Below, piece after piece: positions 2,037 to 39,663 of a stretch of DNA of 56,407 bases (positions within the stretch are counted from its first letter, which is position 1; each line of letters opens with the position of its first letter). A program made the translations under genes and the position numbers. A model generated the notes under the pieces. That model was not told the DNA's origin and did no database searches. It saw only the letters and a list, made by a program, of their open reading frames with translations. Source of the DNA: a virus (lineage: Duplodnaviria; Caudoviricetes); the IMG/VR virus record IMGVR_UViG_3300034407_000510, positions 1 through 56,407 of that record. One strand, 5' to 3'.

Positions 2037-2318
2037 TTAGCACTTCCATCTTCTACGCGCCTGACGAAGTCTTGAATTAGGATCAGCCGCTGCTTTTGGA
2101 AATTTTTTCATTTGACCGGCGCTTCTCGCGCAGAAGGACTTACGTCTCTTCGCAGCTTTTGATCCTGGCTTGACTTTACCAGTAACCGCTGTTTTTAGTT
2201 TTGAGCCAGGATTTTCTCTTCTATATCGGGCGACCCCAGCTTTTGTCATCCCTGCTCCAGACTTTGTAGATCTGAAATACTTTTTAGTTTTAGGTGGTTG
2301 TCTATCTCTTTTTCTCAT
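2037..2318 (-). CDS. Small basic protein, DUF6321-like
   Basis: GMTKAGVARYRRENPGSKLKTAV...RRKSFCAR...DPNSRLRQARRRWKC; TAATG coupling. Confidence 0.7.
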   Translation of the reverse strand: MRKRDRQPPKTKKYFRSTKSGAGMTKAGVARYRRENPGSKLKTAVTGKVKPGSKAAKRRKSFCARSAGQMKKFPKAAADPNSRLRQARRRWKC

Positions 2319-2599
2319 TATGCCGTCTTCTTTTTCTTTTTAGCAAATGTTGCCGCTCTACTAGGTGTAGGGCCTGTATTCGCTTTTGCTTGTTTTCTTC
2401 TTACGGCACCCGCACGCTGCCCTTTGCTCATCGCTCTTGCTTTTGCAATAGGCACGCATTTTGGATAATTTTTTCTTTTTTCTCCACCACTTCTTCCACA
2501 CTTTGGGTATGAGCCATCCGATTTTTTGTTTGCAATATCGACCCAGTTCTGTTTGACCCATTCTCTCAGTCCTCCGCCTTTTGAGTAATAAGTTCTCAC
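2318..2599 (-). CDS. Small basic protein (GLREWVKQNWVDI/CGR/YPKCVP family)
   Basis: GTG start overlapping the upstream TAG; basic; family of unknown function seen in viruses. Confidence 0.7.
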   Translation of the reverse strand: MRTYYSKGGGLREWVKQNWVDIANKKSDGSYPKCGRSGGEKRKNYPKCVPIAKARAMSKGQRAGAVRRKQAKANTGPTPSRAATFAKKKKKTA

Positions 2600-2847
2600 T
2601 AGACCATCCTAGTTTTTTTCTTTCTATCAGACATGATAGCACCACATCCTTTAGCTACAGCTCCACCGTTGCCATACATATTTCTATCCATCATTCCGCC
2701 ACCCATTGCTTTTTTTCTTTTCTTCTTGCCACCTGGTGTAACTTTACCTGAACATACAGCTGATGCGTACATGTTAGCATATGCTGACGGGTACACTTTA
2801 AATTTTCGCTTCGCTGCCGCTTTACCTCTTGGACAAAGTTTAGCCAT
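2599..2847 (-). CDS. Small basic protein with YPSAYAN motif (DUF5872-like)
   Basis: AKRKFKVYPSAYANMYAS; GG-rich tail; TAATG coupling. Confidence 0.65.
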   Translation of the reverse strand: MAKLCPRGKAAAKRKFKVYPSAYANMYASAVCSGKVTPGGKKKRKKAMGGGMMDRNMYGNGGAVAKGCGAIMSDRKKKTRMV

Positions 2848-3263
2848 TATTTTTTTCCTTTTTTACCGTTGATTACGCCTCTACCTTTTAAGACATCAGC
2901 AAATGTAACTTTACCATCTCCTGTTAGATCAGGAAACTTAGAACCTTTTTTGTAATTCATTCTACGACCCATCATTCCGCCGCCCATTCTACTAGACCTA
3001 GTTTTATCTATACTATCGTTTATCTTAGAAATTTTTTTAACAGTCTCTCCAGTTTTTTTATTAGGAGCAACTCCGTGTCTTGTTCTAACGCCAAAAACTT
3101 CATCTGTATCTTTTCTTCTTCTAGTCAAAGAACCTACAGCTGGTTTTACAGATTTAATGGTTGGTGATTTTTTACCTTTTTTACTAATAGCTGACGAAAC
3201 TATATTTTTTAAATGTGTTACTGGACCTTTTAAAGTATTGAATGCTTTATAATATTTAGACAT
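2847..3263 (-). CDS. Basic protein with a C-terminal EF-hand-like loop
   Basis: FPDLTGDGKVTFADVL fits a Dx[DNT]xDG Ca-binding loop; GGAGG SD. Confidence 0.7.
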   Translation of the reverse strand: MSKYYKAFNTLKGPVTHLKNIVSSAISKKGKKSPTIKSVKPAVGSLTRRRKDTDEVFGVRTRHGVAPNKKTGETVKKISKINDSIDKTRSSRMGGGMMGRRMNYKKGSKFPDLTGDGKVTFADVLKGRGVINGKKGKK

Positions 3264-3649: not shown

Positions 3650-3652
3650 AAT

Positions 3653-3835
3653 TTAGTACGCTTTAGAGTTTCTTTTCTTTTCTTGTAACACTGCACCTTG
3701 ACCTTGAACTTCTAATTCAGGTTTTCCAGTTGCAATTAAGTTAAAAGAACCGTCAGCAGTAGTTTTTGATCTTGGATCTATTTCAGTTTGCTGTTCAGCA
3801 ACTTTAACTTCTTCTATTTTGTCAAGTTTTTGCAT
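3653..3835 (-). CDS. Hypothetical protein (60 aa)
   Basis: AAAAGGAG SD; directly after the portal gene. Confidence 0.7.
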   Translation of the reverse strand: MQKLDKIEEVKVAEQQTEIDPRSKTTADGSFNLIATGKPELEVQGQGAVLQEKKRNSKAY

Positions 3836-3850
3836 TTTTTGCTCCTTTTA

Positions 3851-6304
3851 TTAATTATCCTCTACCATAACTTGTGCTTGTTGTACACCAGTCTTTGCAA
3901 GACTAACTCCAGCACGTAATTTAGCCAAATCTTCGTTCTGTTCCATCTTATCTTCAGCTATTTCTTGTGCTTGCATTAATTTTGCTCTGTTTAAATCTTG
4001 AGTAGCCTCATCATTTTGTTTTTTACGTTCATTTTCCATCGCTCTAAGGTCAACTTCACGTGATTTTAGCTTTAACAGAGGGTCATTATCAAATTGAGAA
4101 GTGATTTGTTTCTCTTCTTTCATGTATTCTTCTGTCATTTCAGCAATTAAGACAGCTTTTCTAGCTTCAATTTGATTTGTAATGTCTTGAAGTTGTGCTT
4201 GTATCTGTGGATTTGTTACTGCTTGTTGTTGCATCATCATCATTTGTTGCATTTGTTCTCTAAATTCAAGTTGAACTTGTTCTTGAGCCATAATTGATAT
4301 GTGTTCTAGTATATTTTTTTGTATTGCAGCCATAATTGATGGATTATTTCTAACCATGTTAGTCGACATAAAGTTTAAATGCGCTGTGATGTGTGCTCTG
4401 TGGTCTTGACCAGGGAAAGCTTGAAATGGTTTCATCGCCATTGCATTGATATGTTCCATACTTGGGTCCATTGGGGCTGTTGGTTGTGGTGGTGGCAACA
4501 CTGCATCAATATTTTTTACACCAATTGCATTATACATGTTTCTATAGATTTGATACATGTTGTGTAACTGTGGATTTGATGTTGCTATTTGTAATTGTGT
4601 TTGTGCAAGTGTAATTCTTTGCGACATTGAAAATATATTTGGATCTGCGACAGGCACAATATCTACTCTGTCATCAAAATCTACTTGCTTAATATTTCTT
4701 TGACCACCCACAACATCGTATGGATATTCTGGTGGTAAATATTTAGAAACAATATTAGCTAATAATTTAAATTCTGATTTCATCGCAGCGTAACATCTTT
4801 TGTGTATTGCGCTCATGACCCTTGAACCACGTTCAAGAAGAGCAATTGTAGTTCCAACTGCAGCTGCTTGGTTACCATCACCCACTTGCATATCAGCAAT
4901 AGCCGCGAATCTTTGACCAGCTTGTACAACGACACCTAATAAATTTAATAATGTTGGTGAAGGCTCTTTGTATGGTAATGGAAAGAAAGCATCTCTTAAA
5001 TTACCACCCGGTGCATCAACATCTTTAAATTCACCTGGTTGTATTGGTGATGCTTCATCTCTAACTCTTACACCTCTTTGTTTAAATCCTGCAGGTAAGT
5101 TAGATAAAGTACCAGCGTCTAATAATTGACGGAGAGCCGCCGTTGCCGTACGACTCAATCCGCCAATCATGTGAATGAGTCCAAAGCCATAAAATCCAAG
5201 TCCTGGCAGAAATTTGAAGTGGACAAAATATTGGATCTTAGTTTTCTTTAGATCATCGGGCGCATAGTTCCTTCTAATAGAAAGAACTTTCCTACTACCT
5301 TCTTCGACTGTTACGATGTAAGGTAATTTTATTCCTGTCGGTCCATCCGTTCCTTGATCTTCAAAACCTTCCAGGTCTAAGTTTACGTGACACTCTAACA
5401 AAGTATAAATCGGTTCTTGTTTACCAGATTTCTTTGTACCTTCTAACTCACGTTCCTTTTTATTTAATTCATCATTAACATCTGTACCAGGAGGTCCTAG
5501 ATCTATGTCAGAATAGAAACCTGATACTTGTTGTTTTCGTAATTCGTTTTCAGAAATTTTTATTGTATGAATAACCGCTTCCGCATCATCTAATGAGGTA
5601 GCTGTATACGGAACGATTAATTCATCTGCTGGTACAAACTTTGATACCGCTCTTCCGAGTGTTGTATCAAAATATACTTTTTTAAAAGTAGAACCAGCTA
5701 ATGGTAAATGAAATAACATCGAATCAAATTCTGATTCGTATTCTTTCATCTGATCCATAATTAAATAATTCATAAAATCTTTTACACGCTCTGACTGTTG
5801 TTCAGTTTGTGGATTTTTAATACCAACGATGTCCGTTCTTACAGGTCCATCTGCAGGTAATAATTCTTTGTAAGCTTGTGCTTGAAACTGTGTAACTGCT
5901 TCTGCAAGAACTGGGTGTGTTGCACCTGATGCACCTTGAAATGGTTCAGTTCTGTTTTCGTATTTAAATCCTAAAAGATCTAAACCTGTTTTATAACTGT
6001 TCTCCCATTCTTTTCTTGAAGCTTTATAGTCCATGTAATTTTGAACCATCTCGTTTCCAATTGGTTCTAAAATATCTTCTGGTAAAATATCTGCTAAGTT
6101 ATCGAAATGATTTTCTGTTCCAGGTATATTGATTGCACCTGGTTCAAAGTCGATTGTTGCACCACCATCTTCTTCTGGTACTACTTCAACCGGTCCTTTT
6201 TCTACGTCTTCCTCCTGAACACTAACTTCTTCTGCCATCTCTTCATCTGAAGGGATGTCAATTTTAGTACGAGTGTTAGGGAGTCCTTTATCTATATCTG
6301 CCAT
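3851..6304 (-). CDS. Portal protein (P22-like podoviral type)
   Basis: 817 aa; HPVLAEAVTQFQA, GSTFKKVYFD, GFYGFGLIHMIGGL, C-terminal Gln-rich barrel; near TerL. Confidence 0.85.
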   Translation of the reverse strand: MADIDKGLPNTRTKIDIPSDEEMAEEVSVQEEDVEKGPVEVVPEEDGGATIDFEPGAINIPGTENHFDNLADILPEDILEPIGNEMVQNYMDYKASRKEWENSYKTGLDLLGFKYENRTEPFQGASGATHPVLAEAVTQFQAQAYKELLPADGPVRTDIVGIKNPQTEQQSERVKDFMNYLIMDQMKEYESEFDSMLFHLPLAGSTFKKVYFDTTLGRAVSKFVPADELIVPYTATSLDDAEAVIHTIKISENELRKQQVSGFYSDIDLGPPGTDVNDELNKKERELEGTKKSGKQEPIYTLLECHVNLDLEGFEDQGTDGPTGIKLPYIVTVEEGSRKVLSIRRNYAPDDLKKTKIQYFVHFKFLPGLGFYGFGLIHMIGGLSRTATAALRQLLDAGTLSNLPAGFKQRGVRVRDEASPIQPGEFKDVDAPGGNLRDAFFPLPYKEPSPTLLNLLGVVVQAGQRFAAIADMQVGDGNQAAAVGTTIALLERGSRVMSAIHKRCYAAMKSEFKLLANIVSKYLPPEYPYDVVGGQRNIKQVDFDDRVDIVPVADPNIFSMSQRITLAQTQLQIATSNPQLHNMYQIYRNMYNAIGVKNIDAVLPPPQPTAPMDPSMEHINAMAMKPFQAFPGQDHRAHITAHLNFMSTNMVRNNPSIMAAIQKNILEHISIMAQEQVQLEFREQMQQMMMMQQQAVTNPQIQAQLQDITNQIEARKAVLIAEMTEEYMKEEKQITSQFDNDPLLKLKSREVDLRAMENERKKQNDEATQDLNRAKLMQAQEIAEDKMEQNEDLAKLRAGVSLAKTGVQQAQVMVEDN

Positions 6305-6313
6305 TTAATACTC

Positions 6314-7534
6314 CTATATGTTCTTAACACGTTTTAATAGACCTGGCAACCCTTGTGGGTTTGGTCCTCTTTCTGGTGGTGGGCCTGATGGATCGCCTGC
6401 TTCTTTTGCAATACCACCGCCTGCAAACATTTTTAAAAATTTTCTAGCTGGACCAAAAGGCACAAGATTAATGAAAGGTTTTAATTTTTGAACAACATTT
6501 GCTCTAGACATAATGTCTTCTGTTGTCCCTACAGCAGCATCTTTTATTTTAGAACCAGGAAGTGCCATAACTTCTGTTGTGGTATCAAAACCTAAATCTA
6601 GAATTTTTCCTTGTAAATTAAATGGATCAACAATAATTGGTTTTAATACATTTGCAGCCTTACTTCCTTGCGATCCTCCAGTTGCAACCGTTTCTGATAT
6701 CTTAAAATTAATATTATCTAGTGCTGTTCTTAAAGCAGAACTAGAATTTTTTTTAAGTTTATTAACAAGTTCTAACTGTTTTTTATACAACGGTTTTAGT
6801 TCATCATTTAATTGTTCTGCAACTTTGTTGTTTATATTTTGAGTTTGGATAGCTAACGCATCAATTGGATAATCTATACCTAATTTTTTAGCTTGAAAAA
6901 TATTAGCAGTGTGTGCAACTTCATATGCTTTTCCAAGACCTGTTTTAGTTTTTATTTTTTTAAGTCTGTCTTCAAGGTTAGATGCTGATAAAACATTTTT
7001 TCTTTTCTTTGCGGCTCTCTCTGCTCCTCCTGTTGATTCTGGACCTCGTTTACTTTCTATAAACTTAAAACCCTCTGATATTAATTCACTTTTACCTTGA
7101 GTCATCCATTTTGGAGTTCCAGCAGTTTTACTTCTTTTTAATTTAAATTCTTTTATAACTTTATTTTTTGCTTCGTTAGGTGTGTCACCAGCTTTAACTA
7201 ATTCTTTAAATTTAATTACTCTTTCATTTTTTGATTGTGTTTGTTTTATGTTACGCTGTTCTAAAGCTTGTATATTACCAGGGTTTCCTGGTTGAAATCC
7301 TTGACGTGTTCTAATATCTGTTCCACCTTGTAATTTAATACGTCCACCATCAGCTCGTGGATTACGTTTATTAAATTGATTAAAAAGATCTATTTGTTGA
7401 ACTTCAAATTTATCTACAGGTTTTGCTAAATCAGATGCAAAAGTTATACCACCACCTAGAAACTCTCTCTTTCTGTTTCTGCCTGTTCGTAGATATTCGT
7501 TTAGCTCTTTGATTTCTTTAGGACCGAACTTCAT
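6314..7534 (-). CDS. Modular putative virion-internal protein with GG linkers and a possible degenerate HNH-like core
   Basis: RADGGRIKLQGG and MFAGGG flank a basic central domain containing EVAH...AIQTQNINNK; between TerL and portal. Confidence 0.6.
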   Translation of the reverse strand: MKFGPKEIKELNEYLRTGRNRKREFLGGGITFASDLAKPVDKFEVQQIDLFNQFNKRNPRADGGRIKLQGGTDIRTRQGFQPGNPGNIQALEQRNIKQTQSKNERVIKFKELVKAGDTPNEAKNKVIKEFKLKRSKTAGTPKWMTQGKSELISEGFKFIESKRGPESTGGAERAAKKRKNVLSASNLEDRLKKIKTKTGLGKAYEVAHTANIFQAKKLGIDYPIDALAIQTQNINNKVAEQLNDELKPLYKKQLELVNKLKKNSSSALRTALDNINFKISETVATGGSQGSKAANVLKPIIVDPFNLQGKILDLGFDTTTEVMALPGSKIKDAAVGTTEDIMSRANVVQKLKPFINLVPFGPARKFLKMFAGGGIAKEAGDPSGPPPERGPNPQGLPGLLKRVKNI

Positions 7535-8377
7535 TATTCTCCTAACATATAACCGATACCGCCACCGCCTGCTTTTTTAACCCTGTTTTCTATAACTTCT
7601 ATAATATCGTCTTCAATACCCATCTCATCTTGTCTTCCAGGTTTGTAATAGATCTCTTTATCACCTTTTTTAATTATGTAACTACCATCTTGAATATCTT
7701 CTGTAACTTCAACACCTTCATGTTTTTTCTTTGTTACCATTTCTTTAACTCTTTTTCCTTTTAACGAAACTAATTTGCCAAGACTCATGACTGTATCTAC
7801 AATCTTAGCTAGCGCTGGTCCTGATATTTCTGCAGCTTTTGTTACAACAGGTGCTGCCATCTTAACACCTTTACCAATTCCAAACGGAAGCAATGATGCA
7901 AGTCCTGCAGCTGCTTTCATAAAAGTTCTTCTCTTAGGATCTTTTGGTCCGTCTTTGTAACCAATACGTCCACCCTCTGCTAAACCAGGAAGCGAAGATA
8001 AGTTTGATACAATGTCAAATAATTCTGCAGTGTTAAAACCAGATAGAATAGGTGCATTTCTGTTTGCAAAAATACTTTTAAATAATCCGCCATCAGGTTT
8101 TACACCAGACATCATTTTAGCTAATAGTCCTTCTTTAAAAGCTGCACGTCCACCGTCTGCTAATGTAATTGATGGTGCGCTTCTTTCTTTTTTACCTGTA
8201 AGATCTTCAAGTGCTTCTTCTAAATCTATTATCTCATCGTCTGTTAAATCTTTTAAAGGTTTACCGTAATATCTTTCAGACAACATTTCCATTACACTGT
8301 TTCTCTCATCCATAATATCAGGAGCTGATGCCATCTGCATAATACCTTCACCTTCTTTTAAACCAATACGTCCACCC
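7337..8377. repeat. Dispersed direct repeat encoding the GGR linker
   Basis: AACCAATACGTCCACCC is identical at 7959-7975 and 8361-8377; AATACGTCCACC at 7337-7348; ACGTCCACC at 8146-8154. Confidence 0.85.
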
Positions 8378-8859
8378 ATTGCTTTGTCGTCTCTCATTTT
8401 ATTTTTTAGTGCTTCTATTTTATCTACTAACTCTTTTGCTTTTTCTCTAAATCCTTTAGATTTAGGATTTAGATTACCAAGTTTTTGTTCTGTTTTTATA
8501 ATTTCTTTTTTAATACTTGACATGTTTGAAATATCATAATCATCAAGACCATAAACATCTGGTCTGTTTTTAGTTTTTACTTCTTTAAGATTTTTACCCA
8601 TGTCCTTTTGCATTCTTGCAAAGATGTTATCAAACATTCCTTTCTGACCAACTTGTTGACCGCCCATAATACCTTTAGATGTATCAATGACATTGCCTTT
8701 CATATCAACAACTTTATTCATGTCTTTAAATCTTGACATTGCTTCTTGTTTGATTTTAATAAGATCAAGTCCTTTAGGTTCTATGCCTTTAACTTTTTGA
8801 TAACCTTTAACCAGTTGATTAAATATTTGTGGTAATGACATTCCAAATTTTATCATCAA
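7534..8859 (-). CDS. Modular putative virion-internal polyprotein with repeated AxGGR motifs and an internal Tat-like motif
   Basis: KAMGGRIGLKEG, LADGGRAAFKEG, LAEGGRIGYKDG, KKAGGGGIGY; KRRTFMKAAAGLASLLPFG. Confidence 0.65.
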   Translation of the reverse strand: MMIKFGMSLPQIFNQLVKGYQKVKGIEPKGLDLIKIKQEAMSRFKDMNKVVDMKGNVIDTSKGIMGGQQVGQKGMFDNIFARMQKDMGKNLKEVKTKNRPDVYGLDDYDISNMSSIKKEIIKTEQKLGNLNPKSKGFREKAKELVDKIEALKNKMRDDKAMGGRIGLKEGEGIMQMASAPDIMDERNSVMEMLSERYYGKPLKDLTDDEIIDLEEALEDLTGKKERSAPSITLADGGRAAFKEGLLAKMMSGVKPDGGLFKSIFANRNAPILSGFNTAELFDIVSNLSSLPGLAEGGRIGYKDGPKDPKRRTFMKAAAGLASLLPFGIGKGVKMAAPVVTKAAEISGPALAKIVDTVMSLGKLVSLKGKRVKEMVTKKKHEGVEVTEDIQDGSYIIKKGDKEIYYKPGRQDEMGIEDDIIEVIENRVKKAGGGGIGYMLGE

Positions 8860-10337
8860 TAATAATTCCTTTTAACGTTATTCTGTGGTTCATCCACATA
8901 ATCTTCAGGGTGTTGTATCAAACCACCTTGTCTGAATCGCATGATTGCTTGTGTGGTTGAGTCCACAAGGTCGTCATGATCGCCGTAGGGAAATGCTGCG
9001 CATTCTTCCATGACATCGTCTGCGAATTTCTGCTCCGGACACCATATCATACCAGATTCAAATAAAGGTGCAACAGAATTCACACGTGCGTGCTTGTCGT
9101 TTCCTTTTGATGGTGTGAAGTTTACAACAGGTATATCCATGTTCCTTAGTTCGTAAGTTAAGGGCAAACCACTAGCTTTTGCCTCAATAATCACTGATTC
9201 AGGTTGCCAGTATTTATATTGTTCTAATGCAAGACGACGTAACTCTGGAAACTCATAACGTCCTTTGACTGCATCAAGAAGCATTAAATTGGCTGGTTCG
9301 TCCTCTGATGGATAGAATACTCCCCATGTCGTTATCGCACTGTAGTCTGCAGTTTCTTTTTTTAAAAATGCTGTATCATAACTTTGTATGACATGATGTA
9401 GTGTTGGTATCCAATCGTTTGGCCATATCCTCCACCACTCACGTTTTAAGATTGCTCCTTCTTCTGCTGTTGGATTTTGCATCCACTGTGCATTCCATTT
9501 ACCCGTGGGCAGTGTTGCTTGTACCTTCTCAAGCTCATCTAGTTTCCAATACTCAGGCCAAACAGGTGCAGCGTCCTTTGATCCGTGGTCCAAGATTGCC
9601 GGAAATTCGACCACGTGCCATTGATCAGCTTTCGCTTCTTTTTGGTTTGCTAGTAATTTTCCTGTTAGATCTTTGTTAGACCAACGAGTCATAACCAATA
9701 CAATTTTACCACCAGGTTGCAAACGCTGACGTGGACCTGATGTATACCACTCATACGCTGACTCCATGGCTGTAGGTGACAATGCATCTTGCTCTGAGTG
9801 CGGGTCGTCAATGATTAATAAATCTGCACCACGTCCAGTGATCGCACCACCAACACCGGCGGCGAAGTATTCACCACCTTGTGATGTCTCCCAACGTCCT
9901 GCTGCTTTACTATCTTCTTGTAGGGTTGTTTTAAAAATTTTAGAATAATCTTCTGAGTCGATTAGGTTCTTTGCTTTACGACCAAACCTGACTGCGAGTT
10001 CACCCGTGTGGGTAGCTTGAATGATCTTGAGCCTTGGCTCACGGCCCACCATCCATGCTGGCAAAAGATAAGATGCAAATTCAGATTTTGTATGCCTAGG
10101 AGGCATATTAATGATCAATCGATTTATTTCACCTGATGCTAATTTATTAAATTTATCTGCAATGTGTCTGTGATGGGACCCCTCTACAAATTCTGGCCAC
10201 ACACATTTTACAAAACTTAGAAAGTCATCTTTAGCTTTGTTCTGTATCTTTTTTTCTGCATGCATGACCTTCAATCTTAAAAATTGTTTACGGACGTCTG
10301 CAGGCAGTTTGCTTATATCTACTGTATTCAAATTCAT
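8856..10337 (-). CDS. terL: Terminase large subunit
   Basis: Walker A-like MPPRHTKSE, Walker B LLIIDDPH, coupling motif VMTRW, RNase H-like SYDTA and HDDLVDSTTQA. Confidence 0.95.
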   Translation of the reverse strand: MNLNTVDISKLPADVRKQFLRLKVMHAEKKIQNKAKDDFLSFVKCVWPEFVEGSHHRHIADKFNKLASGEINRLIINMPPRHTKSEFASYLLPAWMVGREPRLKIIQATHTGELAVRFGRKAKNLIDSEDYSKIFKTTLQEDSKAAGRWETSQGGEYFAAGVGGAITGRGADLLIIDDPHSEQDALSPTAMESAYEWYTSGPRQRLQPGGKIVLVMTRWSNKDLTGKLLANQKEAKADQWHVVEFPAILDHGSKDAAPVWPEYWKLDELEKVQATLPTGKWNAQWMQNPTAEEGAILKREWWRIWPNDWIPTLHHVIQSYDTAFLKKETADYSAITTWGVFYPSEDEPANLMLLDAVKGRYEFPELRRLALEQYKYWQPESVIIEAKASGLPLTYELRNMDIPVVNFTPSKGNDKHARVNSVAPLFESGMIWCPEQKFADDVMEECAAFPYGDHDDLVDSTTQAIMRFRQGGLIQHPEDYVDEPQNNVKRNYY

Positions 10338-10532: not shown

Positions 10533-10540
10533 AAGAAAGG

Positions 10541-10846: not shown

Positions 10847-10878
10847 ATTATACCTTTCTTGTTAATAGGATTATCCTA

Positions 10879-18135: not shown

Positions 18136-18256
18136 AATATCTTTCCTCTCTTCTTTTCTCTATATATTTCAAATGTTTAACCCATGCCCATGCATTGATC
18201 TTACCAGACCATTCCATGACTTTATCTAAAAATTTATATATGTATTTGTCTAACAT
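18116..18256 (-). CDS. Small hypothetical protein (46 aa)
   Basis: GGAGGAG SD; MLDKYIYKFLDKVMEWSGKINAWAWVKH... Confidence 0.6.
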   Translation of the reverse strand: MLDKYIYKFLDKVMEWSGKINAWAWVKHLKYIEKRREERYFGKRKR

Positions 18257-18690
18257 CTCTCCTCCACGGCTGCTCTATACTCATTCAAGTCAACCACGTT
18301 ATTTTGTTTTAGTTTTTCTTTTGAGTAATGTTCTATGATCTGTTGAATCTTTGGCAACTTGGTATGTGCAAAAGGCCAAATCAATAAACATACTTGATAA
18401 GCATCTCTAAATGTACAACGCCATTTGTATTGTTTCAAGTATTTAGTTCCATCTTTCCTGGTCCCTTTTACAGTCTTCGGTCTAAGTGTTCCTACACCTA
18501 ATACTTCATGTAACCAAATCAATACACTATGGTCCGTCATGGTGATCTCCATACTGATACGCATGGAGTTTGATAATCTATATCCCTCACCTTTGTGTTT
18601 CTTTTTCTTCTCGATACCACGTTTGAAATGTATTGATCCTTCACCATCAAACAACCCTGCAATATATGCAATATCAGTTTCAGCTATCAA
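18250..18690 (-). CDS. Free-standing single-motif LAGLIDADG endonuclease-like protein
   Basis: IAYIAGLFDGEGSI motif; TTGA coupling. Confidence 0.85.
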   Translation of the reverse strand: MIAETDIAYIAGLFDGEGSIHFKRGIEKKKKHKGEGYRLSNSMRISMEITMTDHSVLIWLHEVLGVGTLRPKTVKGTRKDGTKYLKQYKWRCTFRDAYQVCLLIWPFAHTKLPKIQQIIEHYSKEKLKQNNVVDLNEYRAAVEERC

Positions 18691-30543: not shown

Positions 30544-31974
30544 ATGAATTATAAATTTAAAACCAAGCCATATGCACATCAATTAACTGCATTGGAAAAA
30601 TCTTGGAACAAAGAAAACTTTGCGTACTTTATGGAAATGGGTACGGGTAAAACAAAAGTATTGATTGATAATCTTGCTATGTTGTATGACAAAGGCAAGA
30701 TAGACGGTGCTTTAATTATTGCACCAAAAGGTGTTGTTAAAACTTGGTACGAACAAGAATTACCTACGCACTTACCTAATCATATAGAAAATGTAACTGT
30801 GTTATGGCAATCTAATATTACAAAAGCACAACAAGAAAAATTAGAAACATTGTTTGAAATAGAAACTGCGTTTCATGTTTTAATTATGAATGTTGAAGCT
30901 TTATCTACAGATAAAGGTGTAAAGTTTGCAACTAAGTTTTTAAACTCACACAAAGTTATGATGGCAATTGACGAGTCTACTACTATTAAGACACCTACAG
31001 CACAAAGAACTAAAAACATTATAAGACTAGGTGACCTTGCTAAATATAAAAGAATAATGACAGGTTCTCCTATAACAAAAAATCCTTTGGATCTATACAC
31101 TCAATGTTATTTTTTAGATCCTTATTTATTAGATCATGCATCGTATTATTCTTTTAGAAATAGATATGCTATTATGAAAACAATGCACGTAAGAGGTAGA
31201 TCAATACAAGTGGTGCACAAATTTCAAAACTTATCAGAGTTATCTGACAAAGTAAAAGATTTTTCTTATAGAGTATTGAAAGAAGATTGTTTAGATTTGC
31301 CACCAAAAAATTTTATTAAACGTCATATACAGTTAACACCTGCACAAAAGAAAGTGTATGAACAAATGAAGAAAGCAGCTATGGCTGTATTAAATGGTAA
31401 AGTATCTACAACTATGACTGTATTAACACAGCTAATGCGTTTACATCAAATTACTTGTGGTCATTTTACTGCTGATGATGGTTCAGAACAACAAGTTGAA
31501 AGTAATAGAATGCCAGAGCTGATGTCCATACTTGAAGACATGGATGGTAAAGCTATTATATGGGCTAACTATCAGAAAGATATAAAAGGAATTATAGAAG
31601 AGATAACTAAAAAATATGGTCCGGGATCCGTGGTTGATTATTATGGATTAACTGCACAAGAAGATAGACAAGATAATATTCGTAAGTTTCAAAATAATCC
31701 TGAGTGTAGATTCTTAGTTGGTACACCACAAACAGGTGGATATGGTATTACACTTACACAGGCTAACACCGTAATTTATTATTCTAATGGTTACGACCTA
31801 GAAAAGAGACTGCAATCAGAAGACAGAGCACACAGAATAGGACAAAAGAAGACAGTAACCTATATCGATCTGATTTGCGAGGACACCGTCGATGAGAAGA
31901 TTGTGAAGGCTTTAAGAGATAAAATAAATATTGCATCTGAAGTCATGGGTGAAGAATTGAAAGACTGGATTTAA
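30544..31974 (+). CDS. SNF2-family (SF2) helicase
   Basis: MEMGTGKT, IDES, MTGSP, QSEDRAHRIGQ. Confidence 0.9.
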   Translation: MNYKFKTKPYAHQLTALEKSWNKENFAYFMEMGTGKTKVLIDNLAMLYDKGKIDGALIIAPKGVVKTWYEQELPTHLPNHIENVTVLWQSNITKAQQEKLETLFEIETAFHVLIMNVEALSTDKGVKFATKFLNSHKVMMAIDESTTIKTPTAQRTKNIIRLGDLAKYKRIMTGSPITKNPLDLYTQCYFLDPYLLDHASYYSFRNRYAIMKTMHVRGRSIQVVHKFQNLSELSDKVKDFSYRVLKEDCLDLPPKNFIKRHIQLTPAQKKVYEQMKKAAMAVLNGKVSTTMTVLTQLMRLHQITCGHFTADDGSEQQVESNRMPELMSILEDMDGKAIIWANYQKDIKGIIEEITKKYGPGSVVDYYGLTAQEDRQDNIRKFQNNPECRFLVGTPQTGGYGITLTQANTVIYYSNGYDLEKRLQSEDRAHRIGQKKTVTYIDLICEDTVDEKIVKALRDKINIASEVMGEELKDWI

Positions 31975-32447
31975 ACTAGATCTTTTGCTTTTCCAATCAC
32001 AGGTTTGTATTTAGTTTTTCCCTCTGATTTGTATGCGTGCAAGAATTGTTTTCTTGGTTGGTCAGATGTATAGCTGCAATGTATCCATCCACTGTTTGGC
32101 TCACCAGGAGTGTAGAACTCCAATATTAATTGATCGTAGTCTAGGTTTTGATTAATCCAATCTGCTAATTCTGCATTGTCTGTACCCATACATTCGAAGT
32201 CTGCGGCCTCGGCTTTGGCATGTTGGCTGTTGATTGAGCTACCTATTTTTAGACACAGCTGCTCGCTACGGAATCCGCTAGTTACTTTTACTCTGCCGAA
32301 GTGGTCCCGAACAGGTTGTAAAATATTTTCACAAAGTGCTTTTAGTTTTTCTATTTGACCTGAGTTTGGATTGTTATTTATATCCAACCTGATCGCAGTG
32401 TCAGATTTAATTAATTCTTGAAGGGTAAAGTTACGACTTAGATTCAT
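31971..32447 (-). CDS. Peptidase M15 endolysin
   Basis: LSRNFTLQEL, SGFRS, SQHAKAEAAD, WIHCSY. Confidence 0.9.
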   Translation of the reverse strand: MNLSRNFTLQELIKSDTAIRLDINNNPNSGQIEKLKALCENILQPVRDHFGRVKVTSGFRSEQLCLKIGSSINSQHAKAEAADFECMGTDNAELADWINQNLDYDQLILEFYTPGEPNSGWIHCSYTSDQPRKQFLHAYKSEGKTKYKPVIGKAKDLV

Positions 32448-36408: not shown

Positions 36409-36416
36409 AGTTTATC

Positions 36417-37235
36417 CTACGTATTAATTTCTACTGCAACAAATCCTTGTGGCACGCCCTCACCGCCTGGTGCACTTGAATCTCTCGTAAAATATTTACC
36501 TGAAATTGCATCATGATAAGTGAAACCCTCTTTGTAAGTTTTTCTACCAGGATTCCAGTAAGGATCTTCAACATCAAACGAAAGATCATCATTTTTCTTT
36601 TGTATGCTATCAAAATCATATTCAAAAGTTGCCATTCTTTTAGCAACCAAAGTATTTACTCTCATGTTTTGAGCTATTGTTTGTGTGTTTGCATCAATTG
36701 CTTTTTTACGTTCCTCACCTGGCATAAATTGTACACCATATACTTTTTTCTGCGCTAACATATTTAAGGCCTTATTGTATTCACCAAAGAATTCACTTTC
36801 TGGATTGTCAGCTAAAACTTGTGCTTCTTTTTGTATTTGAATTCTACTATCTTCATCCAAATTTTTTAATAACTGCAGTTGCTTGTCTCTTTCAAACTCT
36901 CGCTCTTCTTTTGCTTCTGCAAACTTAGCTTGTTGGAAAGTTTCAAATGGTTCTTTTGCAGCTGCAGCAGCTGTAGAAAATATATTTCCTGTAGGTGCTT
37001 GACTTGCAAGATTTAAACCAAACTGTGTTATGAATCCTGGTATTGTCCCAAGACCAAGACCTGTTGGTTTTTTATCAACAGCTGGTGCTGATGGTGTCAT
37101 TGGTCTTTGAATAAAAAATCTAGCATCGGCTCCACCGCCTTGTTGATATCCAGGTCTATCAAGTCCTGATGTAATACCAGTTCCTGATGAACCACCCATT
37201 CTAAACATTGGTCTTTTTAATGTTCTACTTCTCAT
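36417..37235 (-). CDS. Putative internal virion protein
   Basis: LKRPMFRMGG...GYQQGGG N-terminus; position in the cluster. Confidence 0.65.
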   Translation of the reverse strand: MRSRTLKRPMFRMGGSSGTGITSGLDRPGYQQGGGADARFFIQRPMTPSAPAVDKKPTGLGLGTIPGFITQFGLNLASQAPTGNIFSTAAAAAKEPFETFQQAKFAEAKEEREFERDKQLQLLKNLDEDSRIQIQKEAQVLADNPESEFFGEYNKALNMLAQKKVYGVQFMPGEERKKAIDANTQTIAQNMRVNTLVAKRMATFEYDFDSIQKKNDDLSFDVEDPYWNPGRKTYKEGFTYHDAISGKYFTRDSSAPGGEGVPQGFVAVEINT

Positions 37236-38260
37236 TATCTAGATCCTAAATATAGGCCCCCTAGTGTTGTTGCGATACCTAGAGCAGATTGTAGTGGTGT
37301 AGGTTGTGGTATGAACTCCTGCCTTGTTCCACCTGGATAACCACCCATTAAACCTGTTACTTGTGAAGCATATCTATCTAATTGTTGTTGAGGCATAAAC
37401 GCTGCTTGTTGTCTTGCCTGTCTATCTGCATCAAGTTGTGCTTGGCTTAATGATCTGTCGATTGCGCCCAATGCTCCAAGTTGTCCGACATCTGCTCTTT
37501 GTAATCCAGGAACTAATGATGCTAGTCCTGTTTGAAATTGTGCTTGTCCTAATTGTTGTCCTGCTAATCCTGCTTGTGCTTGTCCTAAACCAAATCTATT
37601 TTGTATGTCTTGTTGTCTTGCAGCTTGTGCTTGTCCAAAACCTTGCTGCAATAGATTTGCTTGTAATAATGCACGTTCTCTTGCAGCCCCTGTGCCAAAC
37701 TCTGCGAGTTGCACTCCCGCTCGACCACTGCCGAGCGCACCCAAAGCGGCTTGTTGATCTCGTATACTTTGCTCTCTCATAGCTGTATTACGATCAAATT
37801 CTGCTAATGATGCATCAATCACTTGTGATTGATATGGTGACATAAACTGAGATACGTCTTGTTGAAAAGCTTGTGCTCCTAATGGAACACCACCTAACGT
37901 TGTTCCTGCTTGTCCTAATATTCCTCCAGCAGTTCCTGCTTGTGTTTGTGCTGCTTGTACGAATGGTTGAAATGATCCAATGCCAGCTTGTGCTGTTGTT
38001 CTAGCATCTTTTTCTAATTGACTTAAACCTGCAACTTCTGGTGCAAGTCCTGCTAAACTCTGTTGTCTAATATCAAATTGTTGTGCTGCTTGTTGTCTTT
38101 TTGCAAAGTCTGCTGCTGATTCACCTGCTAATTGTGATATACCACCTGTTCCTGGTGCAACAACAGGTACTTGTGCTTGGGCCGTGATCTGTGTTGCAAG
38201 GTCCGTGCCTAATTTATCTACGAATGGTGCGGGTAATGTTCTAGTCTCTTGTATAGCCAT
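37235..38260 (-). CDS. Putative DNA-transfer (pilot) protein, Gln/Ala/Gly-rich
   Basis: FMSPYQSQVI, GALGSGRAGV, C-terminal hydrophobic LGIATTLGGLY. Confidence 0.7.
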   Translation of the reverse strand: MAIQETRTLPAPFVDKLGTDLATQITAQAQVPVVAPGTGGISQLAGESAADFAKRQQAAQQFDIRQQSLAGLAPEVAGLSQLEKDARTTAQAGIGSFQPFVQAAQTQAGTAGGILGQAGTTLGGVPLGAQAFQQDVSQFMSPYQSQVIDASLAEFDRNTAMREQSIRDQQAALGALGSGRAGVQLAEFGTGAARERALLQANLLQQGFGQAQAARQQDIQNRFGLGQAQAGLAGQQLGQAQFQTGLASLVPGLQRADVGQLGALGAIDRSLSQAQLDADRQARQQAAFMPQQQLDRYASQVTGLMGGYPGGTRQEFIPQPTPLQSALGIATTLGGLYLGSR

Positions 38261-39663
38261 TATACTACATCCTCTAATCTTTTTGCTGTTTGAAACATGT
38301 TACGTGCGCCTTCTAAGCCTTGCGATTCTTCGGATACTTCACCTCCGGCTTCGAGGTTTTTCATCATGTTATACATGACTTCTGCGCCTTTGTCCACATC
38401 TCCGTCACCTGCGTTTCTTACAGCATCAGCTGTGAATACGAATTCATTTTTAGATAGTCTAGCTGGCACGTCGTCAGCCTTTTCCATTCTACCTATCGGC
38501 ACGAAGCCACCTTCAGCTCTTAAATCCATTTCTTGTCCACCCATATCTAATAGTGGCATAGTTCTTTTAGCTACTGGCTCATCTTTCATAGATCCACCTT
38601 CAGCTTTGAAAGCACCAAATAATACACCATAAGGATCTGTATATGCTTTTGGATCTATTTGACCACCAACTGATCCTGTAAATCCTGATGGTTGTTGTTG
38701 ATCATCTTGATCTCCAAATATAAAAGGTGCTCCTATTAATCCTGCTGCTGCAGCTAGTTTTTTATTTTTCATTATAAACGGTATTAAGGTTTCTTTACCA
38801 AAAGGTGTAAAAGCAAGTGCAGCCCCTAATCCTAATTTACCAACAGGACTCTTAACTATTTTCTTAACAGCTCTTGTTGCTTTCTTAACTAATTTACCTA
38901 AGAAATAATTTTGTCTACCTGCAGCATCCATGATGCCTCCACCTATCATACCGCCGTCTGCTGCCATTATATCTCTAATGTCACCAAGTTGTTCGTCGTA
39001 ATTTTGATCTTCTATAACATCTTCTTGATAAGGTGTCATAGGTATTCCAGGCACTTCTAATAAACCTCTGTCTGGAACTAAACTCATGTCATCATCAATA
39101 ACAACATTAATAGGTTTTCTTTTTGAAATAATTATATCATCTACGGTTGGTCTAAGACCACTACCTCTTCCCGAGTCTACAAAAACAGGCGGGTCATCAT
39201 CTTTTCTCATATTTTTAAAAAAATCTACTAATGTTGGAGAATCTTTAAATGTTTGTAAAGTTTCTGGCGCTTGTTGAGTAAAAAATCTAGAGGCTATACC
39301 TAAACCAGGATTTACTAATCCTAACAGAAAAGATAATGGGTTAAATTTAGAAGCTAAACTTCTTATACCTTGAAACCTTTTAGGACGTTGAAAAACATTT
39401 GATCTTTCTAAAGCTCTTTGTCTACCAAGAGTGTCTCCTACATTAACTTTTTCACCACCTATCATTTCAAAAGCTGGTCTAGGATCTGATTGTGGACGAT
39501 CTATTCTACCTGTAGTTCCTCCAGGTCCTGCACCTCTTTGGGTTATACCTCTTTCTCTATTAGAACTACCGCCAGGTCTTTCAACGGAACCTTCTTTTGC
39601 TCGTCCGCCGAAGCCTCCGATTCTATATAGTTGTCTTGCTTGTTGTGATCTTGTTATGGCCAT
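38260..39663 (-). CDS. Modular putative internal virion protein
   Basis: Several AxGG motifs, amphipathic FLGKLVKKATRAVKKIVK, C-terminal DDVPARLSKNEFV domain. Confidence 0.65.
   Translation of the reverse strand: MAITRSQQARQLYRIGGFGGRAKEGSVERPGGSSNRERGITQRGAGPGGTTGRIDRPQSDPRPAFEMIGGEKVNVGDTLGRQRALERSNVFQRPKRFQGIRSLASKFNPLSFLLGLVNPGLGIASRFFTQQAPETLQTFKDSPTLVDFFKNMRKDDDPPVFVDSGRGSGLRPTVDDIIISKRKPINVVIDDDMSLVPDRGLLEVPGIPMTPYQEDVIEDQNYDEQLGDIRDIMAADGGMIGGGIMDAAGRQNYFLGKLVKKATRAVKKIVKSPVGKLGLGAALAFTPFGKETLIPFIMKNKKLAAAAGLIGAPFIFGDQDDQQQPSGFTGSVGGQIDPKAYTDPYGVLFGAFKAEGGSMKDEPVAKRTMPLLDMGGQEMDLRAEGGFVPIGRMEKADDVPARLSKNEFVFTADAVRNAGDGDVDKGAEVMYNMMKNLEAGGEVSEESQGLEGARNMFQTAKRLEDVV

What the first reader, a model, noticed from the sequence alone, without database searches (positions are those of the whole stretch)
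2318..39663. Recurrent (F/Y/L/K/A)-x-x-G-G linker in predicted capsid-internal proteins: possible polyprotein-processing or packaging code
Seen in the 441-aa protein: KAMGGRIGLKEG, LADGGRAAFKEG, LAEGGRIGYKDG, KKAGGGG. In the 406-aa protein: RADGGRIKLQGG, MFAGGG. In the 467-aa protein: AADGG, FKAEGG, LRAEGG, LYRIGG. In the 272-aa protein: FRMGG, YQQGG. In small basic proteins: KAMGGG, YGNGG, RMGGG, YSKGGG. The motif separates unrelated modules and is not evident in this form in the replication genes. Known: Gly-Gly cleavage matures virion polyproteins in adenovirus ((M/L/I)xGG) and ASFV (GG-X), and T4 loads internal proteins through a short targeting sequence. Inference: the motif is a maturation cleavage site or a prohead-loading tag, so these genes are strings of separately delivered cargo peptides. 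No prohead protease is visible in this window.
Basis: partly seen in the sequence, partly recalled or inferred. Interest (0 to 1): 0.8.

Follow-up and report, generated by a model that had tools for sequence, protein, structure and literature searches.

The report
Junction peptide in pelagiphage internal proteins
A short, strongly conserved peptide (Ala-Asp/Glu-Gly-Gly-Arg-Ile-Gly-aromatic-Lys-x-Gly) sits at the flexible joints of several modular proteins that this abundant ocean phage probably packs into its head, and most likely marks where they are cut or loaded during assembly, though neither has been measured.

Summary
The window is a 90%-complete contig of an HTVC023P-type Pelagibacter podovirus. 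Every quoted string is present. The loose motif (F/Y/L/K/A)-x-x-G-G is weak: it is also enriched in three Kelch-like fibre proteins and is at background in the other 60 proteins.

Inside it is a real, sharper motif, the "GGR box": A-[DE]-G-G-R-[IA]-G-[FLY]-K-x-G. It occurs three times in the 441-aa protein and once, weaker, in the 406-aa protein. In relatives it also occurs in small basic proteins after the portal and in the 467-, 341- and 272-aa ejection-type families. It is never seen in terminase, portal, nozzle or unassigned ORFs. The window's own sites in the 467- and 272-aa proteins, and probably the 138-aa one, are degenerate copies.

The boxes lie in segments predicted disordered and flank swappable modules. 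They also show an unusual codon pattern: the box Arg is CGT.

No protease is detectable here or in a complete relative. However, phage T5 tape-measure protein pb2 is cut exactly before its only AEGG. The 467-aa C-terminal module aligns with the glycine-rich C-terminal region of lambda gpH, the region in which gpH is cleaved at an unmapped site.

- **Best reading (0.4):** a processing junction cut before the Ala.
- **Main rival (0.3):** an uncut, encapsulin-like loading tag.

Neither is shown.

The parts
7534..8859 (-). Gene A, 441 aa (440 aa from the ATG at 8856), between large terminase and portal. Modular: conserved N-terminal about 70 aa, helical modules, three GGR boxes, conserved C-terminal about 130 aa.
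   Evidence: 1524 homologues at E<=0.001 among 7999 scored; TerL - gene A - gene B - portal synteny in the 76 loci; AF2 mean pLDDT 44.8.
8350..8382 (-). GGR box A1, residues 160-170, AMGGRIGLKEG. Followed by GEGIMQMAS, the hot spot for module insertion.
   Evidence: Matrix score 43.3. 1380 inserted residues of 42 homologues fall right after residue 178, against 154 at the four other sites with 20 or more. pLDDT below 50 over 157-185.
8128..8160 (-). GGR box A2, residues 234-244, ADGGRAAFKEG.
   Evidence: Score 42.0. G236, G237, R238, K242 and G244 conserved in 90% or more of 43 sequences.
7948..7980 (-). GGR box A3, residues 294-304, AEGGRIGYKDG.
   Evidence: Score 48.2. A294, G296, G297, R298, K302, D303 and G304 invariant in 43 sequences.
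7873..7935 (-). Twin-arginine-like element after box A3: KRRTFMK plus the moderately hydrophobic stretch AAAGLASLLPFGIG.
   Evidence: [RK][RK]x[FIL][MLI]K lies 2-12 residues after a box in 119 of 120 homologues. Pfam TAT_signal below threshold in 14 of 43, best E 0.027. A lead only.
7537..7572 (-). Degenerate terminal box, AGGGGIGYMLGE, at the extreme C-terminus of gene A.
   Evidence: 118 of the 120 C-termini listed end in GG..[YRS/H].LGE-type tails (the call lists the 20 commonest endings, which cover all 120; two others look like frame errors). G433, G434, L439, G440 and E441 invariant.
6314..7534 (-). Gene B, 406 aa, upstream of the portal gene. One weak box and a degenerate C-proximal copy, then the conserved tail GPPPERGPNPQGLPGLLKRVKNI.
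   Evidence: Box at score 12 or more in 42 of 57 gene-B homologues.
7322..7354 (-). GGR box B1, residues 61-71, ADGGRIKLQGG.
   Evidence: Score 10.4, above the 95th percentile (6.6) but below the maximum (12.0) of shuffle maxima. Relatives have canonical RNPRADGGRIGF at this place.
6392..6424 (-). Degenerate box AGGGIAKEAGD in gene B.
   Evidence: Read from the sequence. G001 gene B keeps AAGGGIAKEAGD.
38260..39663 (-). 467-aa protein, first of the putative internal/ejection gene row (467, 341, 272 and 1261 aa, ahead of the endolysin).
   Evidence: Synteny. The neighbouring 341-aa protein hits phrog_4287 'DNA ejection protein', E 1e-6. AF2 mean pLDDT 55.6.
39589..39627 (-). Degenerate N-terminal box YRIGGFGGRAKEG after the conserved leader MAITRSQQARQL.
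   Evidence: At the same alignment position L090, L091 and L098 have GGRIGLQGG or GGRVGLRFG. Box at residue 10 onward in 15 of the 33 box-bearing homologues. pLDDT below 50 over 16-22.
38926..38961 (-). ADGGMIGGGIMD, a conserved box variant with Met in place of Arg.
   Evidence: First GG kept in 18 of 19 and last GG in 19 of 19 aligned homologues. Relatives carry ADGGRAGMMDGGM or ADGGRIGAAEGGI in the middle of the protein; that these occupy the same place is read from sequence likeness, not from an alignment of those rows.
38587..38604 (-). AEGGSM junction, where relatives carry an inserted 'box + GIMQMAS + helical module' cassette.
   Evidence: GG kept in 18 of 19. A box-led cassette is inserted in L089, L100 and L101, 3 of 19 aligned, bounded by AEGG, ADGG or AKGG on the far side; a fourth row (L085) has a module insert without a canonical box.
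38332..38520 (-). R382|AEGGFVPIG...NEFVFTADAV...EAGGEV: C-terminal module resembling the C-terminal region of tape-measure proteins.
   Evidence: R382, G385, G386, F387 and V388 invariant in 51 sequences. hhalign to lambda gpH 734-785, E 0.0014, 41% over 51 columns. Weak PHROG tape-measure hits, E 0.001-0.018. T5 pb2 is cut at R1127|AEGG.
36417..37235 (-). 272-aa protein. N-terminal RPMFRMGG, and a degenerate box at YQQGGG (37131-37148).
   Evidence: FRMGG kept in 20 of 20; YQQGG in 5-6 of 20. Canonical box in 27 of 59 homologues, mostly near the C-terminus; at residue 27 in L149 and L155.
37235..38260 (-). 341-aa Gln/Ala/Gly-rich ejection-type protein. No canonical box in the window.
   Evidence: phrog_4287. 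Box plus GIMQMA module appended at the C-terminus in 3 of 71 homologues, including G001.
2943..2990 (-). 138-aa basic protein: RMGGGMMGRRMNYKKG, a 'MGGGMM' variant with a degenerate box.
   Evidence: In an alignment of eight syntenic small proteins, four relatives have a canonical-type GGR[IV]GLK box a short way upstream of the block where the window, G001 and L071 have RMGGGMMGRR. L066 carries both in tandem (GGRVGKMGGGMMSRRFG).
2662..2709 (-). 82-aa basic protein: AMGGGMMDRNMYGNGG.
   Evidence: Conserved KKAMGGG[MV][MI]D in relatives.
2567..2590 (-). 93-aa basic protein: YYSKGGGL near the N-terminus. A loose instance, not a box.
   Evidence: Not scored above 8 by the matrix.

Best explanation
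The real feature is an 11-residue peptide, A-[DE]-G-G-R-[IA]-G-[FLY]-K-x-G (core A-[DE]-G-G plus a hydrophobic residue). It lies in disordered linkers of a set of modular, basic proteins of the head and ejection modules of HTVC023P-type pelagiphages.

I read it as a junction signal used during virion assembly. Most likely the chain is cut immediately before the Ala, as measured for T5 tape-measure protein pb2 (R1127|AEGG). The cutting activity would not be encoded as a recognisable phage protease: a host enzyme, an unrecognised phage enzyme, or assembly-dependent self-cleavage. Cutting would turn gene A, gene B and the 467-aa family into sets of separate modules, each starting with the box.

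Shown: the motif, its restriction to these protein families, its position at module borders, cassette exchange between genes, the lack of a detectable protease, and the T5 cut site.

Inferred: that these proteins are inside the capsid, that the box is cut, and where.
For: 1. Specificity.
   - Box at score 12 or more in 42 of 57 gene-B homologues.
   - Also in 18 of 159 unassigned plus-strand ORFs: 11 large proteins in the gene-B position and 7 small proteins with 23-29% Lys+Arg.
   - 0 of 66 portals, 0 of 63 terminases, 0 of 661 unassigned opposite-strand ORFs.
   - 33 of 80 of the 467-aa family, 27 of 59 of the 272-aa family, 3 of 71 of the 341-aa family.
   - 0 of 73 (727-aa family), 0 of 73 (113-aa family), 0 of 20 (1261-aa family), 0 of 390 unassigned ORFs.
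   - Gene A itself has 69 of 76, but the matrix was built from that family.
2. Linker position. The boxes fall in segments with pLDDT below 50, between helical modules.
3. Module borders.
   - Nearly all length variation in gene A is inserted right after box 1.
   - The cassette 'box + GIMQMAS + acidic helical module' of gene A is found inside three 467-family homologues, with an A-x-G-G site on both sides, and at the C-terminus of the 341-aa homologue of G001.
4. Precedent.
   - T5 pb2 is cut after R1127 by mass spectrometry (PMC10038345, passages read).
   - In the T5 record the sequence is NSFVPR|AEGGMMYPG, the only A[DE]GG in 1219 residues.
   - The 467-aa family has an invariant R382 before AEGGFV, 85 residues from its end. 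T5 pb2C has 92 residues.
5. The same module aligns with lambda gpH 734-785, with both GG motifs in register. This lies in the glycine-rich C-terminal region in which gpH is cleaved to gpH*; the site and the catalyst are unknown (PMC12617516, passages read).
6. The box occurs in a cultured phage, so it can be tested: HTVC027P gp41, gp42 and gp82.
Against: - No cut has been measured in any phage of this group, and virion membership of these proteins is inferred from gene order and weak profile hits only.
- The residue before the Ala is not conserved in GGR boxes (L 40, K 25, F 23, Y 10, M 5 of 113). The conserved part is 11 residues on the C-terminal side, about 19 bits outside the four residues used to select the sites. 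That is more typical of a binding epitope than of a protease site.
- Gene A always ends with a degenerate box 10-12 residues before its stop codon. Cutting there would achieve little.
- T5 pb2 shares only the motif, not an alignable domain, with the 467-aa family (E 0.87).
- The lambda alignment is weak (probability 17%), and lambda's cut site is unmapped.
- Most window sites outside gene A are degenerate.
Confidence: 0.4

Rival explanations
1. Uncut cargo-loading tag. The box is a docking peptide that binds the inner face of the HK97-fold capsid (or scaffold or portal) and brings the proteins into the procapsid, as encapsulin targeting peptides do. Several copies per protein would add avidity.
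For: - Pattern likeness to family-1 encapsulin targeting peptides: native T. maritima NTGGDLGIRK and consensus DGSLGIGSLKG. [quoted passage not shown] The box is GG-R-I-G-[FLY]-K.
- Gene A ends in a degenerate box at its very C-terminus.
- High information content on one side only, and a disordered context.
- Restriction to proteins likely to be inside the head.
- The capsid of relatives is a 303-aa HK97-type protein with a separate scaffold. As recalled, such phages often lack a maturation protease.
Against: - Most boxes are internal, not terminal.
- A profile of 61 box segments finds no encapsulin cargo or anything else among solved structures. The only hit has E = 2 and is unrelated, so the likeness is of pattern, not descent.
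- The A-[DE]-G-G core is shared with tape-measure proteins, which sit in tails, not in capsids.
- It does not explain why inserted cassettes carry the motif on both sides, other than through recombination at the box.
Confidence: 0.3
2. Hinge or recombination linker only. The box is a flexible joint kept because it is the microhomology at which modules are swapped, with no partner that recognises it.
For: - Cassette exchange between genes, and insertion hot spots at the box.
- The DNA of the box is unusually uniform: GGTGGACGT occurs 4 times in the window against 0.08 expected.
- The box Arg is CGT in 137 of 225 cases against 8% background, and in 97 of 98 in gene A.
- Other conserved Arg residues in the same proteins use AGA.
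Against: - A plain hinge does not need invariant Ala, Arg, Lys and an aromatic residue.
- In the 272-aa family the box keeps its amino acids while mostly using AGA (19 of 22), so the protein sequence is what is held.
- Third positions of neighbouring codons vary freely.
Confidence: 0.1
3. One reading: a cut after Gly-Gly by a phage-encoded adenain/ASFV-type cysteine protease or another prohead protease.
For: Some sites fit (M/L/I)-x-G-G loosely, for example AMGGG in the 82-aa protein.
Against: - No protease family other than the M15 endolysin among 70 window proteins (Pfam and PHROGs at E<=0.001).
- None among 17 additional or unassigned proteins of the complete relative G001.
- None among 9 HTVC027P head-region proteins.
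- The only mapped cut at this motif lies before the Ala, not after the GG.
Confidence: 0.03
4. The box binds something else: packaged DNA, or the host chaperonin GroEL by mimicking the GroES mobile loop.
For: - The proteins are basic (16-30% Lys+Arg).
- The phage has its own GroES-like gene (1095-1499), whose loop reads TKGGIHLAE.
- The likeness of that loop to GG-x-I-x-L, and its role in GroEL binding, are my own recollection.
Against: - The box itself has a net charge of about +1 or less and carries a conserved acidic residue.
- The GroES likeness needs an extra invariant Arg inside the loop.
- No test was possible.
Confidence: 0.07

Closest known systems
Processing junction of siphovirus tape-measure proteins (T5 pb2 into pb2* and pb2C; lambda gpH into gpH* and gpHC)
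   Same: - Core A-x-G-G followed by a hydrophobic residue, in a glycine-rich, unresolved region ahead of a roughly 90-residue C-terminal module of an ejected protein.
- T5 is cut exactly before AEGG.
- The 467-aa C-terminal module aligns with gpH 734-785, including both GG motifs.
- No dedicated protease is known: 'unknown how cleavage is catalyzed'.
   Different: - A podovirus with no tape measure.
- The motif is multiplied (1-5 copies per protein), extended by R-I-G-[FLY]-K-x-G, and spread over at least six protein families, including genes between terminase and portal.
- Cutting is unproven here, and lambda's site is unmapped.
Encapsulin family-1 cargo targeting peptides
   Same: A short Gly-flanked peptide with two hydrophobic residues separated by Gly and a following basic residue, on a flexible linker, serving proteins destined for the lumen of an HK97-fold shell.
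   Different: - Mostly internal and repeated rather than a single C-terminal copy.
- No sequence-detectable relation.
- Binding to the capsid is untested.
T4 capsid targeting sequence of internal proteins, removed by prohead protease gp21 (recalled, not read here)
   Same: A short shared peptide on otherwise unrelated proteins packed in the head. In the 467-aa family a conserved 12-15-residue leader (MAITRxQxAxQL) directly precedes a box.
   Different: No gp21-like protease. Different motif. Sites are internal and repeated.
Polyvalent proteins of phages and conjugative elements (recalled; one 467-family homologue hits Pfam LPD22, E 4.9e-4)
   Same: Strings of unrelated small modules delivered with the DNA, with modules exchanged between proteins.
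   Different: Much smaller proteins, no embedded protease domain, and a defined junction peptide.

Membership tests
Tape-measure-type processing junction (T5 pb2 / lambda gpH) | Motif: hydrophobic or basic residue | A-x-G-G-hydrophobic, ahead of a C-terminal module of about 90-120 residues | tested here: met
   467 aa: MDLR|AEGGFVPIG, 85 residues from the end, with R382, G385 and G386 invariant in 51 sequences. T5: FVPR|AEGGMMYPG, 92 residues from the end. Lambda: FHFATGGF at 734.
Tape-measure-type processing junction (T5 pb2 / lambda gpH) | Sequence relationship of the flanking module | tested here: inconclusive
   hhalign to lambda gpH: E 0.0014, probability 17%, 41% identity over 51 columns. 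T5 pb2: no alignment, E 0.87. PHROG tape-measure families at E 0.001-0.018.
Tape-measure-type processing junction (T5 pb2 / lambda gpH) | The chain is actually cut at the motif during assembly | not testable with these tools
   No virion proteomics of HTVC023P-type phages was found (search listings and passages).
Encapsulin family-1 targeting peptide | Two hydrophobic residues separated by Gly, plus a basic residue, on a flexible linker | tested here: met
   Box G-G-R-I-G-[FLY]-K against NTGGDLGIRK and DGSLGIGSLKG. Disordered context.
Encapsulin family-1 targeting peptide | Single copy at the extreme C-terminus of the cargo | tested here: not met
   Canonical boxes are internal, 1-5 per protein. 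Only a degenerate copy ends gene A.
Encapsulin family-1 targeting peptide | Binds a pocket on the luminal face of the shell protein | tested here: inconclusive
   The only attempt gave no verdict (see Tried and rejected). The window lacks its capsid gene.
Adenovirus/ASFV-type GG-X polyprotein processing | Virus-encoded clan-CE cysteine protease | tested here: not met
   No such family among 70 window proteins or 17 additional or unassigned proteins of the complete relative G001.
T4-type capsid targeting sequence | Prohead protease (gp21-like) and an N-terminal leader ending in its cut site | tested here: not met
   No prohead protease. A leader-plus-box arrangement exists only in the 467-aa family.

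The most novel reading that the evidence does not exclude
A-x-G-G-hydrophobic is a junction code shared across tailed phages and read by one still unknown activity, host-encoded or assembly-triggered. This would be the same activity that cuts T5 pb2 and lambda gpH.

Pelagiphages have multiplied the code to build polyprotein-like strings of swappable cargo modules, which are released inside the capsid or on ejection.

In gene A, a cut before box 3 would leave a fragment whose new N-terminus has the layout of a twin-arginine export signal: about 15 residues, then RRxF[ML]K, then a mildly hydrophobic stretch. A phage protein could then be handed to the host Tat pathway only after processing.
Probability: 0.15. 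Interest if true: 0.85.

Novelty: new variant of a known kind. Interest (0 to 1): 0.62.

Why it matters
[quoted passage not shown] Almost none of their virion-module proteins has a known role.
- A defined, testable peptide shared by six of these protein families gives a handle on which proteins travel with the DNA and how they are loaded or released.
- If the box is the same signal as the T5 pb2 cut site, it would give a sequence rule for tape-measure processing. For lambda both the site and the catalyst are stated to be unknown (PMC12617516).
- If it is an uncut loading tag, it would be a natural phage counterpart of encapsulin targeting peptides and a possible tool for packing foreign proteins into phage heads.
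- The cassette pattern also shows how small cargo modules are shuffled between virion proteins.

Tried and rejected
- **Complex prediction.** Capsid protein of the complete relative G001 (alignment A2, 100 rows) with residues 280-314 of the window's gene A. Verdict: no answer, so it counts neither for nor against binding. The capsid was from a relative because the window lacks its own.
- **Box profile against solved structures.** 61 box segments (A3). One unrelated hit at E = 2. The first row of A3 was given with shifted coordinates (residues 278-302) and so lacks the last two box residues.
- **Folds.** The 441-aa and 467-aa models have mean pLDDT 44.8 and 55.6. They are too poor for fold searches, so none was run.
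- **Family libraries.** Pfam, PHROGs and NCBIfam at relaxed thresholds name none of the box-bearing proteins, beyond phrog_4287 for the 341-aa protein and weak tape-measure hits. The ESM Atlas gave only unnamed viral clusters.
- **Cultured relatives.** tblastn against cultured phages found only HTVC027P, an uncultured 023Pt record and one weak tape-measure hit.
- **JBD30 tape measure.** The paper only speculates about a cut (passages), so it is not used as evidence.
- **Literature.** Searches for pelagiphage virion proteomics, for a link between encapsulin tags and phage scaffolds and for a tape-measure cleavage motif found no description of this box. Supplements were not opened.
- **GroES-loop mimicry and DNA binding.** Considered but could not be tested.
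- **Frozen ancestral codon at any invariant Arg.** Rejected as a general rule: the RR motif and R382 use AGA.
- **Earlier notes.** Look-ups by place and by sequence returned nothing.

Full report
**What the window is.** The 56,407-base window is a whole IMG/VR virus record. It is linear, and CheckV estimates it at about 90% complete. Nearly all genes lie on the minus strand. Its nearest cultured relatives are Pelagibacter phages HTVC023P and HTVC027P.

Profile scans of 70 ORFs give:
- large terminase 8856-10337;
- an SU10-type portal 3851-6304 and adaptor 54461-55165;
- a GroES-like gene 1095-1499;
- a scaffold-like acidic protein 125-1075;
- a family-A polymerase, primase and helicases;
- an M15 endolysin 31971-32447;
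- several 2OG-Fe(II) oxygenases.

A complete, collinear 57,845-base relative (G001) shows what the window lacks across its ends: two small proteins (153 and 186 aa), the 303-aa HK97-type capsid protein, and two more small proteins. The capsid gene is not in the window.

**Checking the observation.** All quoted strings are present. The loose motif is only partly meaningful.
These proteins were chosen because of the motif.
- The other 60 proteins are at expectation (22 against 20.8).
They consist of Kelch-like repeats with 'LAFGG'.
- A[DE]GG is sharper: 6 in the seven proteins, 1 in the fibres, 0 elsewhere.

**The real motif.** The 441-aa protein (gene A) has 1524 homologues at E<=0.001 among the 7999 candidates scored, nearly all from marine metagenomes.
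- All of the 120 best carry 2-5 copies of GGR[IA], and 118 of the 120 end in ...GG..[YR][ML]LGE-type tails.
- A matrix from 113 distinct sites gives A(110 of 113)-[DEM]-G-G-R-[IA]-[GA]-[YFL]-K(96)-[DE]-G.
- In the window it scores 48.2, 43.3 and 42.0 in gene A and 10.4 in the 406-aa protein (gene B). The largest score in 200 shuffled proteomes was 12.0.
- The last 12 residues of gene A (AGGGGIGYMLGE) align position for position with the box and form a degenerate fourth copy.

**Where else the box occurs.** TerL - gene A - gene B - portal is syntenic in 76 viral-contig loci.
- At score 12 or more the box is in 69 of 76 gene-A homologues (by construction) and in 42 of 57 gene-B homologues.
- It is also in 18 of 159 unassigned same-strand ORFs. 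Eleven are large proteins in the gene-B position. Seven are small proteins with 23-29% Lys+Arg, six of them just after the portal (the seventh, L004 11168-11452, lies further downstream).
- It is in 0 of 66 portals, 0 of 63 terminases and 0 of 661 unassigned opposite-strand ORFs.
- In 80 loci around the 467-aa gene it is in 33 of 80 homologues of that protein, 27 of 59 of the 272-aa protein and 3 of 71 of the 341-aa protein.
- There it is in 0 of 73 (727-aa), 0 of 73 (113-aa), 0 of 20 (1261-aa) and 0 of 390 unassigned ORFs.
- The window's own sites in the 467- and 272-aa proteins are degenerate copies at the same alignment positions. YRIGGFGGRAKEG lies where relatives have GGRIGLQGG, and ADGGMIGGGIMD resembles the ADGGRAGMMDGGM of relatives. 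In the 138-aa protein RMGGGMMGRRMNYKKG lies close to where relatives have KDGGRIGLKRG.
- Several of the 467-aa GG sites are nearly invariant (18-19 of 19).
Of 86 ORFs carrying it in the 80 loci fetched, 21 have no detectable similarity to any window protein.
- The cultured phage HTVC027P has canonical boxes in gp41, gp42 and gp82.

**Anatomy.** AlphaFold2 models of gene A (43-row alignment) and of the 467-aa protein (51 rows) are poor overall, with mean pLDDT 44.8 and 55.6. They show short confident helical modules separated by segments below 50, and the boxes lie in those segments.
- Length variation in gene A is concentrated right after box 1 plus GEGIMQMAS: 1380 inserted residues there, against 154 at the four other sites with 20 or more.
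- The same cassette (box, GIMQMAS, acidic helical module) is inserted into three 467-family homologues (L089, L100, L101), with an A-x-G-G site on both sides. It is appended to the 341-aa homologue of G001.

**A codon oddity.** In 230 distinct box DNAs the Arg codon is CGT in 137 of 225 cases, against 8% CGT and 84% AGA elsewhere in the same ORFs. The first Gly avoids GGA (4 observed, 71 expected), and other positions are near background.
- By family, gene A has CGT in 97 of 98 and gene B has CGN in 34 of 41.
- The 467-aa family has 18 CGT and 22 AGA. The 272-aa family has AGA in 19 of 22.
- Other conserved Arg residues (the RR motif, R382) use AGA.
- GGTGGACGT occurs 4 times in the window against 0.08 expected.
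- Avoidance of GGA-GG may reflect avoidance of Shine-Dalgarno-like strings (my inference). The near-fixed CGT in gene A is unexplained. It fits common descent and exchange of box-bearing cassettes, but single-step synonymous changes should have accumulated.

**Is there a protease?** None is detectable.
- No protease family besides the M15 endolysin among the 70 window proteins.
- None among 17 additional or unassigned proteins of complete G001.
- None among nine HTVC027P head-region proteins.
- Unassigned ORFs could still hide one.

**Comparison with known systems.**
1. **Encapsulin targeting peptides.** My first idea was an encapsulin-like loading tag. Published peptides (NTGGDLGIRK; consensus DGSLGIGSLKG) bind through two hydrophobic residues separated by Gly plus a Lys contact, and hang on flexible linkers (PMC7925596, passages). 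The box has the same pattern. A profile of box segments finds nothing among solved structures, so this is a likeness of pattern only.
2. **Tape-measure processing.**
   - T5 pb2 is cut after R1127 by mass spectrometry (PMC10038345, passages).
   - In the T5 record the sequence is NSFVPR|AEGGMMYPG, the only A[DE]GG in 1219 residues, 92 residues from the end.
   - Lambda gpH carries FHFATGGF (734) and GYATGGYV (779) and ends in RDGGLFSGGGR.
   - The 467-aa family aligns with gpH 734-785 with both GG motifs in register (E 0.0014, probability 17%). It has an invariant Arg before AEGGFV, 85 residues from its end.
   - T5 pb2 itself does not align.
   - For JBD30 the paper only speculates about a cut.
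[quoted passage not shown] I saw the title only.

**Weighing.**
- For a cut before the Ala: the T5 precedent at the same core, the likely homology of the 467-aa C-terminal module with the cleaved region of gpH, the linker position, and cassettes with the motif on both sides. The lack of a phage protease is also the situation in T5 and lambda tails.
- For an uncut tag: conservation lies almost wholly on the C-terminal side over 11 residues while the residue before the Ala varies, gene A ends in a box, and the pattern matches encapsulin tags.
- The two are not exclusive. A cut would leave each fragment starting with the box.
- My estimates: 0.4 for a processing junction, 0.3 for an uncut loading tag, 0.1 for a mere hinge or recombination linker, 0.03 for a cut after GG by a phage protease, and the rest for other partners.

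**Novelty.** Tape-measure cleavage and targeting peptides are known. In my searches I found no description of a defined, repeated junction box shared by six families of podovirus head and ejection proteins, with cassette exchange. Earlier notes of this scan report similar A-x-G-G motifs in unrelated phages, which suggests a wider rule. Those notes are unchecked apart from what I tested here.

Noticed in passing
window 7873-7935 (-): Right after the last GGR box, gene A carries KRRTFMK and a mildly hydrophobic stretch that looks like an internal twin-arginine signal. [RK][RK]x[FIL][MLI]K follows a box in 119 of 120 homologues. G001 reads NRRAFLKLMGGVGAGIGAL. Pfam TAT_signal is below threshold in 14 of 43. 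The highest 19-residue Kyte-Doolittle hydropathy anywhere in gene A is 1.17 (at residues 348-366, downstream of this stretch), too low for a classical membrane helix.
   Followed up: partly
window 7966-7974, 8146-8154, 8368-8376, 7340-7348 (-): The box Gly-Gly-Arg is always encoded GGT GGA CGT in the window. Across relatives the Arg is CGT in 97 of 98 gene-A boxes, although AGA is 84% of Arg codons in the same genes. Unexplained.
   Followed up: partly
window 46467-51467 (-): Three glycine-rich fibre-like proteins (613, 614 and 317 aa; phrog_27227) are built of roughly 50-residue Kelch-like repeats (TEEYDGSSWT..GG.LNTAR..LAG.GTQTAGLAFGG). These explain the loose-motif enrichment there.
   Followed up: partly
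window 39628-39663 (-); L164:16557-17468 (capsid of G001): The 467-aa family starts MAIT[RKN]xQ, with M1, A2, I3, T4 and Q7 invariant in 51 sequences. The capsid proteins of relatives start MAISRSQLVKEL, and HTVC023P gp50 starts MAITRGQ. This may be a shared N-terminal element.
   Followed up: no
window 2895-2930 (-): The 138-aa basic protein ends with an EF-hand-like loop, DLTGDGKVTFAD. HTVC027P gp44 (FPDLTGDGEVTKAD) and HTVC023P gp53 (DKNKDGKISGED) have the same. The EF-hand label is from memory.
   Followed up: no
window 42546-45779 (-): A run of three 2OG-Fe(II) oxygenase genes, a 'ferrochelatase'-labelled PHROG and a sulfotransferase sits between the nozzle-like 727-aa gene and the fibre genes. 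It may modify virion proteins.
   Followed up: no
window 1-124 and 55889-56407: The contig breaks inside the structural module. The ORF at 55889-56407 runs off the end, and the capsid gene with four small neighbours seen in G001 is missing.
   Followed up: yes
window 2037-2318 (-): The 93-aa, very basic protein is a free-standing DUF6321 domain. In PHROGs the same domain forms the C-terminus of much larger phage proteins (450-928 aa).
   Followed up: no
window 6314-6391 (-): Gene B ends in the conserved tail GPPPERGPNPQGLPGLLKRVKNI. In HTVC023P a similar GPPPKRGPNPQ is in gp32, downstream of the portal rather than upstream.
   Followed up: no
window 18250-18690 (-): A LAGLIDADG/HNH-type homing endonuclease ORF lies within the replication module.
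   Followed up: no
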